Source: a virus
Taxonomy: Duplodnaviria > Heunggongvirae > Uroviricota > Caudoviricetes
IMG/VR virus record: IMGVR_UViG_2778261666_000008
Strand: one strand, 5' to 3'
DNA: 7,502 nucleotides
Below the pieces are notes generated by a model. The model saw only the letters and a program-made list of their open reading frames with translations, made no database searches and had not been told where the DNA came from. Both the position numbers and the translations under genes were made by a program. This document shows, one piece after another, positions 5,076-6,131 of this stretch. Numbering within the stretch: the first letter of the stretch is position 1; the number at the start of each line of letters is the position of its first letter.

Positions 5076-6032
5076 AAAAGGTGGCTGTAAATGCAACGGA
5101 GGAAGCGGTGCCGCTTCAGGTTGCCAGGAATAAGCACCGAGTTCTGTTAAATCATGTGCAATACGCCAATCGTCCCAGATATTGAGAGGCCTGTAATTCC
5201 TGTCATGTAATAATCATTTCTGCGATATGTCGCGGGCACACCATATACACGATCGTACAGTGGTCGGTCAACTTTCTGTATGGTGTGCAGGGGCATTTTA
5301 ATTTGTTATCGATGCTACCGGTTGATAAATGATCAAAATATTCGTTAGCTGTCTCCTCAACCGTGGTGCATGTTAAGTAGAACTTTTTGCTGCTTACAGT
5401 TTAGAAAGGTATCGAATGCCATTAAACCGGGCTATACCTTACTTGATAAGTATGGATGTGGTTGGTGGTGTTTTTTTATAAATTTATCAGCACATGATTC
5501 AAAAATGCATAATTATTCGCTTTTGTATGCACCTTTAATATTGAATAGTTGGTTTATTGCGTATGATCTAATGCGAGATAGAAGATGCTGCATTTTTATG
5601 TATATAAATGAATAAATATCAACACATTCATATTTTATTTCGATAGGTATATTTTAGCTCTCAATTAATTGAAGGCTAATAACATGAATGGTTATTTATA
5701 TAATTTTAGTGTGAAATTTGAACGTTATATAGATTTGCTGTGCAACAAAATAGCAATATTTTGAGTGGGAGAGATTTTTTTGTTACGCGGGTAATGTGAA
5801 GTTTTCTTTATGAGTTTCTGTTTAAAAATTGTTCAAATATGAGAAATTAAATAACAATGAGTTGTTTTATGAAGTAGATGTGTGTATTTTTTTGATAAAG
5901 ACACCTTAATTATAAGGTGCGCTAATCATTTTATGTGTATTGATTGTGTTTTTATTAACCTCCGAGTGTAACTTTATTGTTATATCGATTTTTCTTATAA
6001 CCTTTATCCCTTTTTTGAATATAAGATAATTC

Positions 6033-6061
6033 TTGAATTTCATAAATCATATAAATAAAAT
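6033..6061 (+). promoter_or_regulatory. Candidate sigma70 promoter for the adhesin gene (TTGAAT-17 bp-TAAAAT)
   Basis: -35-like TTGAAT at 6033-6038 and -10-like TAAAAT at 6056-6061 with a 17-bp spacer, about 70 bp upstream of the ATG. The region is extremely AT-rich, so chance matches are likely. Confidence 0.2.
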
Positions 6062-6131
6062 CCCACAGCTTATTTTTAGAGCTCTATTCAATGGTGTTAA
6101 ATCCTATCTATCTATCAATTTAAAAGATTGA

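What the first reader, a model, noticed from the sequence alone, without database searches (positions are those of the whole stretch)
5280..6131. About 850 bp of extremely AT-rich non-coding DNA upstream of the adhesin gene
The stretch is long, gene-free (the only ORF called, 5370-5615, looks spurious) and rich in A/T tracts. This is typical of xenogeneic DNA bound and silenced by nucleoid-associated proteins such as H-NS, with expression depending on anti-silencing regulators or environmental cues. It may also hide small RNAs or regulatory sites; a TTGAAT-17-TAAAAT promoter-like motif sits at 6033-6061.
Basis: inference. Interest (0 to 1): 0.35.

Follow-up and report, generated by a model that had tools for sequence, protein, structure and literature searches.

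The report
AT-rich promoter region of adhesin gene
This is a real but fairly ordinary gene-free, AT-rich stretch of DNA in front of a horizontally acquired adhesin gene: only its last ~165 bases hold a conserved promoter, and the rest behaves like neutrally drifting filler that may attract silencing proteins.

Summary
Window 5280-6131 is 28.9% G+C (26% for 5451-6137) against 43% for the window, and it contains no conserved gene. All 16 ORFs of 20 aa or more, including 5370-5615, are broken in the E. coli STEC309 ortholog and hit no protein family.

The stretch lies upstream of a mobile, monocistronic YadA-like trimeric autotransporter gene of the Saa/'Yal' type. The true start is 6138. The host is a non-coli Escherichia, and the gene sits beside prophage and IS debris.

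Only the proximal module (5974-6137) is shared by all chromosomal cassettes. That architecture, followed by a G+C-rich heptamer, recurs once in each of nine loci (E. coli chromosomes, IncF plasmids, Proteus), with about 0.02 chance per locus.

The predicted leader is about 70 nt, A/U-rich and unstructured. The distal part (about 5230-5973) is shared with one E. coli lineage only and diverges at about the synonymous rate. I found no sRNA, terminator, switch or known regulator site.

H-NS silencing is plausible from composition and precedent but untested. The motif and curvature tests were uninformative.

Verdict: an ordinary regulatory region. The one mildly novel detail is a conserved rrn-like G+C-rich discriminator.

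The parts
4854..5075 (+). 3' remnant of a lambdoid-prophage tail-end gene (phrog_1443), 5'-truncated at the IS3-family element (3623-4876)
   Evidence: PHROG hit E 8e-38. About 89% nt identity to a gene downstream of tail-fibre genes in E. coli prophages.
5076..5229 (.). Prophage tail-end intergenic DNA. It is not part of the adhesin-associated sequence.
   Evidence: Homology to E. coli prophage ends (L004) runs to 5229. G+C is about 47-50%.
5230..5973 (.). Distal adhesin-associated spacer. It is non-coding, lineage-specific and evolves at about the neutral rate. G+C is 42% at the left end (5230-5450), then about 26%.
   Evidence: Homologous only to the STEC309-type cassette in 11 E. coli genomes; homology starts somewhere in 5167-5230. 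Identity is 0.70 with 52 gap columns, JC 0.39 against dS 0.30. No ORF is conserved. It is replaced by unrelated DNA in cassettes whose protein is 97% identical.
5370..5615 (+). Spurious 81-aa ORF
   Evidence: 5 frameshifting indels and 7 in-frame stops in the ortholog. No family hits.
5893..5928 (.). Lineage-specific imperfect hairpin or palindrome (core CACCTTA-ATTA-TAAGGTG). Probably not functional.
   Evidence: z = -2.1 (+ strand) and -3.6 (- strand). It is absent from the STEC309 ortholog and is not terminator-like.
5974..6137 (+). Proximal promoter-leader module shared by all chromosomal cassettes of this adhesin
   Evidence: Homology with the RM11911-type and A2/JNEC-KY180-type cassettes begins at 5974-5977.
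5977..5996 (+). Conserved 20-mer TTGTTATATCGATTTTTCTT, about -91 to -72 from the predicted start. Candidate upstream (UP-like or activator) site, function unknown.
   Evidence: Identical in STEC309, 19/20 in RM11911, partly kept in A2. On its own the run length is only marginal (P = 0.08).
6033..6038 (+). -35 hexamer TTGAAT
   Evidence: TTGnnn is at this position in 9 of 9 loci.
6056..6061 (+). -10 hexamer TAAAAT, 17-bp spacing from the -35
   Evidence: TA(A/G)AAT with exactly 17-bp spacing in 9 of 9 loci. There is one hit per locus in -250..-1, with chance about 0.02 per locus.
6062..6068 (+). G+C-rich discriminator-like heptamer CCCACAG; predicted transcription start about 6067-6068
   Evidence: 5-7 of 7 G/C in 9 of 9 loci, in the top 0-3% of 7-mers in each 20-28% G+C upstream region. 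The start position is inferred from the usual 6-8 nt distance from the -10.
6068..6137 (+). Predicted ~70-nt A/U-rich, unstructured 5' leader with a weak Shine-Dalgarno
   Evidence: MFE z = +0.7. The only shared structure is a 4-bp hairpin, with no informative covariation.
6138..7502 (+). Trimeric autotransporter adhesin gene (454 aa; YadA head, stalk and anchor domains), Saa/'Yal'-like
   Evidence: Pfam and PDB hits to YadA, BpaC and EibD. 97% aa identity to the JNEC-KY180 chromosomal homolog. dN/dS is about 0.06 against STEC309.

Best explanation
The interval is the non-coding upstream region of a horizontally mobile, monocistronic adhesin cassette. The gene is a Saa/'Yal'-type YadA-like trimeric autotransporter that usually sits at prophage ends, like a phage moron.

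Transcription most likely starts at about 6067-6068, from a sigma-70 promoter with -35 TTGAAT (6033-6038), a 17-bp spacer and -10 TAAAAT (6056-6061). A conserved G+C-rich discriminator follows (6062-6068). This gives a ~70-nt unstructured A/U-rich leader and translation from ATG 6138. Only the proximal ~165 bp (5974-6137) is a conserved functional module.

The ~750 bp further upstream is lineage-specific, neutrally drifting, very AT-rich DNA with no gene, RNA or recognisable switch. If it has a role, that role is compositional: a platform on which H-NS/StpA-type nucleoid proteins nucleate and spread over the promoter, keeping the foreign adhesin gene quiet until conditions relieve silencing.

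Shown here: the stretch is non-coding, its composition, its mobility, the conserved promoter architecture and discriminator, and neutral evolution of the distal part.

Inferred: the transcription start site, H-NS binding, and any growth-rate or stringent sensitivity implied by the discriminator.
For: - Composition and absence of genes.
- Mobility: present in 29 of 5,426 E. coli genomes, in different prophage-end or IS-rich contexts and on IncF plasmids. The host is about 91% identical to E. coli at yedEF.
- Promoter: TTGnnn-17-TA(A/G)AAT occurs once per locus in 9 of 9 loci, at -82 to -106 from the ATG. This includes the unalignable Proteus and plasmid upstream regions. Chance is about 0.02 per locus.
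- Discriminator: G+C-rich heptamer in 9 of 9 loci.
- Autonomous unit: a 17-bp-stem terminator-like hairpin lies 100 nt after the stop in the source contig.
- The distal part is dispensable and unconstrained: JC 0.39 against dS 0.30, and it is replaced wholesale in cassettes encoding a 97%-identical protein.
- AT-rich upstream DNA of 200-1,000 bp is found in every lineage even where the sequences are unrelated.
- Precedent: H-NS represses E. coli autotransporter genes including upaG, and no strict H-NS consensus exists (PMC5012682).
- For the related eibG, 168 bp of upstream DNA sufficed to drive expression from a plasmid (PMC13534694).
Against: - There are no expression or binding data of any kind.
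- The H-NS high-affinity consensus is not enriched beyond base composition, and predicted curvature is unremarkable (the wedge parameters were recalled from memory).
- Promoter-like hexamer pairs are not over-represented in the region, so the promoter call rests on conservation. Four of the nine loci are alignable with each other and therefore not independent.
- The eibG upstream region is not homologous to this one (eibE lacks the architecture), so the 168-bp result is only an analogy.
- Neutral drift of the distal part fits 'junk' as well as it fits an 'H-NS platform'.
Confidence: 0.6

Rival explanations
1. Inert filler. Apart from the ~165-bp promoter module, the AT-rich DNA is functionless debris carried along with the cassette (decayed foreign sequence). 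It has no regulatory role, and any H-NS binding is incidental.
For: Distal divergence is at or above the synonymous rate, with many indels. Length varies from 200 to 1,000 bp between lineages. The distal part is swapped for unrelated DNA next to a 97%-identical protein. No motif, RNA or ORF is conserved.
Against: Every lineage, even those with unrelated sequences, keeps at least 200 bp at 14-31% G+C directly upstream. There is mild but significant clustering of conservation (variance test P = 0.006). AT-rich DNA of this length is generally bound by H-NS in enterobacteria (general knowledge; PMC5012682).
Confidence: 0.3
2. The spacer hides an independent small RNA or small protein gene.
For: Locally stable hairpin at 5893-5928 (z to -3.6). 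An 81-aa ORF and several 20-45-aa ORFs exist.
Against: The hairpin is absent in the ortholog. There are no Rfam hits and no terminators. All ORFs are disrupted in the ortholog and have no family hits.
Confidence: 0.03
3. A phase-variation switch controls the adhesin: an invertible promoter element, Dam-methylation sites or slipped-strand tracts.
For: A 15-nt A/T-only inverted repeat pair (5885-5899 / 6135-6149) brackets the promoter. There are three T7 tracts and three GATC sites. Invertible promoters do regulate other E. coli autotransporters (UpaE; PMC6083910).
Against: The right arm is the start codon plus Lys codons, and the left arm is not conserved in STEC309. GATC occurs at the chance rate (3 against 2.4). 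No homopolymer lies within the -35/-10 spacer. No dedicated recombinase is adjacent.
Confidence: 0.02
4. The gene is transcribed from a distal promoter (for example TTATCA-18-CATAAT at 5484-5513) or by read-through from upstream phage genes, giving a very long 5' UTR.
For: A second promoter-like site exists at 5484-5513. The upstream phage remnant is on the same strand, and no terminator separates it from the adhesin gene.
Against: The 5484-5513 site is not preserved: a 7-nt indel in the ortholog changes the spacing. The distal DNA is not shared by other cassettes. The upstream phage gene is a truncated remnant behind an oppositely oriented IS.
Confidence: 0.05

Closest known systems
H-NS-repressed promoters of E. 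coli autotransporter adhesin genes (upaG/ehaG, upaC, upaH) and other AT-rich xenogeneic virulence promoters
   Same: A horizontally acquired adhesin gene preceded by AT-rich DNA. The TAA gene upaG is a documented H-NS target (PMC5012682).
   Different: There are no binding or expression data here. The adhesin is a short (454 aa) Saa/Yal-type protein, not UpaG/EhaG. The AT-rich tract is unusually long (about 700 bp at 26% G+C), and its distal part is not conserved between cassettes.
Prophage-end morons such as the eib immunoglobulin-binding TAA genes (P-EibE, AF151676) and lambda lom/bor
   Same: An autonomous promoter-gene-terminator unit of deviant base composition, placed after tail-fibre genes at the prophage end.
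   Different: The upstream region of eibE is shorter (358 bp), less AT-rich and lacks this promoter architecture. In this window the cassette lies beside a phage remnant and an IS, not in an intact prophage.
'Yal' and Saa clade of EibG-like adhesins (Nat Commun 2026, PMC13534694)
   Same: The JNEC-KY180 chromosome, reported to carry YalA, has a 97%-identical 454-aa homolog at a prophage end. Related genes are on IncF plasmids, as reported for YalA and Saa.
   Different: I could not confirm that the JNEC-KY180 gene I matched is the one named YalA, because the supplement is not held. The paper does not analyse upstream regions of Yal genes.
Stringently controlled sigma-70 promoters with G+C-rich discriminators (rrn P1 type)
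   Same: A G+C-rich block immediately after the -10 in 9 of 9 loci, with non-G at the second position. Promoters of this kind are generally repressed by ppGpp/DksA (PMC6013443).
   Different: The setting is an AT-rich foreign adhesin promoter, whereas horizontally acquired genes are said to keep AT-rich discriminators (PMC6013443). No kinetic or ppGpp data exist. The spacer is 17 bp rather than the 16 bp I recall for rrnB P1.

Membership tests
H-NS-silenced xenogeneic regulatory region | AT content far above the host genome average over hundreds of bp | tested here: met
   28.9% G+C (26.2% for 5451-6137) against 43% for the window; flanking host genes are about 91% identical to E. coli.
H-NS-silenced xenogeneic regulatory region | Horizontally acquired locus | tested here: met
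   Present in 29 of 5,426 E. coli genomes, in multiple contexts and on plasmids, flanked by IS and prophage DNA.
H-NS-silenced xenogeneic regulatory region | High-affinity nucleation motif (tCGATAAATT-like) and/or intrinsic curvature | tested here: inconclusive
   16 hits with 2 or fewer mismatches against 11.8 +/- 3 expected, and none with 1 or fewer in the spacer. Curvature is near the window average, with one peak of 48 degrees at about 5831 (consensus and wedge parameters taken from memory).
H-NS-silenced xenogeneic regulatory region | H-NS occupancy, and derepression in hns mutants | not testable with these tools
   Needs ChIP or EMSA and expression assays.
Sigma-70 promoter | -35 and -10 hexamers with 16-18 bp spacing, conserved in relatives | tested here: met
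   TTGnnn-17-TA(A/G)AAT occurs once per locus in 9 of 9 loci, with chance about 0.02 each.
Sigma-70 promoter | Mapped transcription start | not testable with these tools
   No transcript data are available.
Stringent-type (rrn P1-like) promoter | G+C-rich discriminator between the -10 and +1 | tested here: met
   5-7 of 7 G/C in 9 of 9 loci, in the top 0-3% of local 7-mers.
Stringent-type (rrn P1-like) promoter | Short-lived open complex, inhibited by ppGpp/DksA | not testable with these tools
   Requires in vitro transcription or relA spoT / dksA backgrounds.
Phage moron | Own promoter and terminator, deviant composition, located between or after phage genes | tested here: met
   Promoter. 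Terminator-like hairpin in source contig L012 at 9464-9500, outside the window. CDS G+C is 39%. The cassette is at prophage ends in L002, L003 and L156, and next to a phage tail-end remnant here.
Small RNA / riboswitch / structured leader | Match to a known family, or a conserved structure with a terminator | tested here: not met
   No Rfam hit at E <= 1 in the spacer, no terminator, leader z = +0.7, and the only hairpin is not conserved.
Protein-coding gene | ORF preserved in orthologous sequence, or a family hit | tested here: not met
   0 of 16 ORFs preserved. No Pfam, NCBIfam or PHROG hits.
Invertible promoter switch (fimS / UpaE type) | Conserved inverted repeats flanking the promoter, plus a dedicated recombinase | tested here: not met
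   The only flanking inverted repeat is A/T low-complexity, overlaps the start codon and is not conserved. There is no adjacent recombinase.
Saa/'Yal' clade of trimeric autotransporters (downstream gene) | YadA head, stalk and anchor domains, and close identity to a named member | tested here: inconclusive
   The domains are present. The protein is 97% identical to a JNEC-KY180 chromosomal TAA, and the paper places YalA on that chromosome, but the locus-to-name link could not be verified.

The most novel reading that the evidence does not exclude
The promoter, leader and signal-peptide segment (about 5974-6168) is a portable regulatory module that recombines independently of the mature adhesin-coding part. 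Its conserved rrn-like G+C-rich discriminator ties adhesin expression to growth rate, ppGpp/DksA or supercoiling. This is the opposite of the AT-rich discriminators described for other horizontally acquired virulence genes. In this reading, selection keeps the long upstream DNA AT-rich only at the level of composition, as an H-NS landing pad.
Probability: 0.2. Interest if true: 0.45.

Novelty: new member of a known kind. Interest (0 to 1): 0.27.

Why it matters
This adhesin clade (Saa/'Yal'-like) was only recently recognised and has no known function or regulation. Locating its probable promoter, start codon and minimal regulatory module gives a direct design for reporter and TSS experiments. 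A G+C-rich discriminator conserved from Escherichia to Proteus gives a concrete, testable hypothesis: expression linked to growth rate or the stringent response, superimposed on H-NS silencing. Otherwise the finding illustrates a familiar rule, that foreign surface-protein genes arrive with AT-rich upstream DNA. It does not open a new question.

Tried and rejected
1. Exact-pattern scans of metagenome and viral contigs with conserved 16-20-mers. BLAST filtering showed that all 140 loci were chance matches.
2. Protein homolog search with the adhesin. It was swamped by low-complexity repeats and did not even return the close relatives. The genome-contig scan gave only Proteus as useful relatives.
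3. H-NS consensus scan and wedge-model curvature: uninformative.
4. Rfam at E <= 1: only a sub-threshold IS009 hit at 5052-5169, outside the spacer.
5. Terminator scan: none.
6. Leader folding and covariation: no structure.
7. Hairpin at 5893-5928: specific to this lineage.
8. Inverted repeats bracketing the promoter: low-complexity and not conserved.
9. IHF, CRP, Fis, Lrp and Fur consensus, GATC sites and homopolymer tracts: nothing is positionally conserved. A 15/19 Fur-like match occurs only in the E. albertii plasmid locus.
10. Extension of the promoter architecture to more distant TAAs (Salmonella, Klebsiella, Edwardsiella, another E. coli TAA, EibE): absent.
11. My initial suspicion that the spacer was anomalously diverged relative to the 93%-identical CDS. 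This was resolved: dS = 0.30 matches the spacer divergence against STEC309.
12. The primary papers on Saa (PMC100080) and EhaG/UpaG (PMC3302597) are not held.

Full report
**1. What is in the window**

Reading left to right, the window contains:
- a phage integrase/excisionase end with small phage ORFs (1-2373, minus strand);
- a second AT-rich patch with an orphan invasin-D4-like ORF (2588-3289);
- an IS3-family element (about 3623-4876);
- the 3' remnant of a lambdoid prophage tail-end gene (4854-5075, phrog_1443), followed by its downstream DNA to 5229 (89% identical to E. coli prophage ends);
- the AT-rich spacer;
- a 454-aa YadA-like trimeric autotransporter adhesin (TAA) gene that ends exactly at the window's end.

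The source contig places the locus between fliE and zinT/yedEF/amyA/fliDST. Its yedEF genes are about 91% identical to E. coli, so the host is an Escherichia species other than E. coli. No gene was called in the spacer in that assembly.

**2. Checking the observation**

The composition claim holds. Window 5280-6131 is 28.9% G+C, and the core 5451-6137 is 26.2%. For comparison, the whole window is 43.2% and the adhesin CDS is 38.8%. A/T tracts are about twice as dense as the window average, and TpA steps are about 2-2.5 times as dense as in the phage and IS parts.

Three small corrections apply:
- The left ~170 bp is only about 42% G+C.
- The gene-free gap is really 5076-6137.
- The adhesin probably starts at ATG 6138, because the ATG at 6132 is missing in every ortholog.

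The spacer is non-coding. When aligned to its E. coli STEC309 ortholog, none of the 16 ORFs of 20 aa or more keeps start, frame and openness. The 81-aa ORF 5370-5615 picks up five frameshifting indels and seven stops. None of the ORFs hits Pfam, NCBIfam or PHROGs.

**3. Relatives and anatomy**

The adhesin cassette is rare and mobile. It occurs in 29 of 5,426 complete E. coli genomes, as three lineages:
- STEC309-type, in an IS-rich island next to asrABC;
- RM11911-type and A2/JNEC-KY180-type, both at prophage ends after tail-fibre genes.

Paralogs lie on IncF plasmids of E. coli and E. albertii, and homologs are present in Proteus columbae and P. penneri.

Only the STEC309 lineage shares the whole spacer, from about 5200-5230 onward, at about 70% identity with many indels. 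The other two chromosomal lineages share only 5974-6137, and their distal upstream DNA is unrelated to the window's. Yet the JNEC-KY180 protein is 97% identical to the window's.

The interval therefore splits into two parts: a lineage-specific distal part (about 5230-5973) and a proximal module (5974-6137).

**4. The promoter**

The scan found 3 promoter-like sites against 6.3 expected in shuffles. Conservation is what supports it.

The pattern TTGNNN-N17-TA[AG]AAT occurs exactly once in the 250 bp before the ATG in each of nine loci. These are the window, three E. coli chromosomal lineages, two Proteus species and three IncF plasmids. The pattern always starts 82-106 nt upstream of the ATG. 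The per-locus chance of at least one hit is about 0.02. The Proteus and plasmid upstream regions cannot be aligned with the window, so those occurrences are independent.

In all nine loci a heptamer with 5-7 G/C follows the -10 directly. Examples are CCCACAG, CCCGCCG, CCGCCAC and GCGCCGG. Each ranks in the top 0-3% of 7-mers in its 20-28% G+C surroundings. A T-rich block follows.

I infer a start at about 6067-6068 and a ~70-nt leader. The leader is A/U-rich and no more structured than shuffled sequence (z = +0.7). It has only a 4-bp conserved hairpin, no informative covariation, and a weak Shine-Dalgarno. A terminator-like hairpin with a 17-bp stem lies 100 nt past the stop codon in the source contig. 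The gene is therefore an autonomous unit, as expected of a phage moron.

The architecture is absent from more distant TAAs: a Salmonella FaeA-linked gene, a Klebsiella ICE gene, Edwardsiella, another E. coli TAA, and eibE.

**5. The distal part**

Against STEC309 the CDS gives dS = 0.30 and dN/dS of about 0.06. The distal spacer has a JC distance of 0.39 with 52 gap columns, and the proximal module 0.25. The distal DNA is thus no more conserved than synonymous sites.

Conservation is mildly clustered (variance test P = 0.006). The longest identical runs, 16 and 20 nt, are not clearly beyond chance (P = 0.08). The 20-mer 5977-5996 lies in the proximal module and is also kept in RM11911.

Nothing else stands out:
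- no Rfam hit and no terminator;
- one locally stable hairpin (5893-5928) that is missing from the ortholog;
- no conserved IHF, CRP, Fis, Lrp or Fur site;
- GATC at the chance rate, and no homopolymer tract inside the promoter;
- the only inverted repeat bracketing the promoter is A/T low-complexity, overlaps the start codon and is not conserved.

Every lineage nonetheless keeps 200-1,000 bp of 14-36% G+C DNA directly upstream, even where the sequences are unrelated.

**6. H-NS**

This part of the interpretation stays an inference. In favour are the extreme AT content, the TpA richness, the foreign origin, and precedent. H-NS represses several E. coli autotransporter genes including the TAA gene upaG, and it has no strict consensus (PMC5012682).

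- The published high-affinity consensus (recalled from memory as tCGATAAATT) gives 16 hits with 2 or fewer mismatches, against 11.8 +/- 3 expected, and none with 1 or fewer in the spacer.
- A wedge-model curvature profile (parameters also recalled from memory) is near the window average, apart from a 48-degree peak at about 5831.

No anti-silencer gene travels with the cassette. For the related but non-homologous eibG, 168 bp of upstream DNA sufficed for plasmid expression (PMC13534694). That fits, by analogy only, a short functional promoter module.

**7. Evolutionary detail**

Against JNEC-KY180/A2 the CDS dS is 0.11, but the proximal upstream distance is 0.42. Divergence falls abruptly at about 6168, near the boundary between signal peptide and mature protein. 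Homology with the plasmid paralogs begins at the same place. This suggests that the promoter-leader-signal-peptide segment and the mature coding part recombine independently. This is an inference; no formal recombination test was run.

**8. Comparison with known systems**

The closest known cases are:
- H-NS-repressed AT-rich promoters of E. coli autotransporter adhesins;
- prophage-end morons such as the eib genes;
- the Saa/'Yal' clade of EibG-like adhesins defined in 2026 (PMC13534694);
- for the discriminator, stringently controlled rrn-type promoters.

The stringent response generally represses promoters with G+C-rich discriminators, and horizontally acquired genes are described as retaining AT-rich ones (PMC6013443). 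A conserved G+C-rich discriminator in this foreign, AT-rich promoter is therefore the one mildly unexpected feature. Its functional meaning is untested.

**9. Verdict**

This is a new member of a known kind and of modest interest.

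Noticed in passing
window 2400-3300 (ORF 2588-3289, +): A second AT-rich patch holds an orphan 233-aa ORF. Its N-terminal ~100 residues match invasin domain 4 (Pfam PF21764) and Yersinia invasin 1CWV residues 302-395 (E 1e-7). It lies between phage early genes and the IS, and looks like a stray invasin/intimin-type fragment or another moron.
   Followed up: partly
window 3623-4876 and 4854-5075: The IS3-family element abuts a 5'-truncated phage gene (phrog_1443). The missing N-terminal part is not on the other side of the IS, so the IS marks a rearrangement or deletion junction between an int-xis phage end and a phage tail-end remnant, not a simple insertion.
   Followed up: partly
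window ~6168 (codon ~11 of the adhesin; signal peptide region): Divergence between cassettes drops abruptly here, from 20-40% upstream to 0-10% downstream. Homology with the IncF-plasmid paralogs also begins at 6168-6203. This suggests a recurrent recombination junction separating promoter, leader and signal peptide from the mature adhesin.
   Followed up: partly
window ~6808-6927: The copy number of the ~26-aa stalk repeat (KNNAVINQNINNAK.ESMAYTDQQVT) varies. The window and JNEC-KY180 proteins are 454 aa, while those of STEC309 and A2 are 428 aa.
   Followed up: no
L002 (E. coli RM11911) 5166-5345: This lineage's adhesin reading frame breaks after 59 codons. RefSeq annotates the gene from a downstream start, so it is probably a pseudogene.
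   Followed up: no
L001 (E. coli STEC309) 11716-14606: The STEC309 island that carries the orthologous cassette also holds an omptin protease gene and a frameshifted H-NS-family gene 3-6 kb downstream of the adhesin, among IS21, IS66 and IS3 debris.
   Followed up: no
L012 9464-9500 (about 100 nt beyond the window's end): A strong terminator-like hairpin (17-bp stem, 8 G-C pairs) follows the adhesin stop codon, after which comes a further ~1 kb gene-free stretch.
   Followed up: no
window 1-1113 (-): The 370-aa integrase ORF matches only part of the Phage_integrase catalytic domain (residues 203-274). No gene was called at this position in the source assembly, so the integrase may be degenerate, consistent with a prophage remnant.
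   Followed up: no
L161 1380-1420 (E. coli TAA P0112, downstream of an inverse autotransporter gene): A distant TAA has a look-alike block, AAAATACTGCGCTCTTTATTTTTT, upstream of its start, but without canonical -35/-10 hexamers. It could be a diverged version of the same promoter-discriminator module.
   Followed up: no
window 5052-5169 (+): Weak, sub-threshold Rfam match to IS009 (19.8 bits against a gathering score of 117; E 0.24) in the phage tail-end DNA just left of the spacer. It is almost certainly chance.
   Followed up: no
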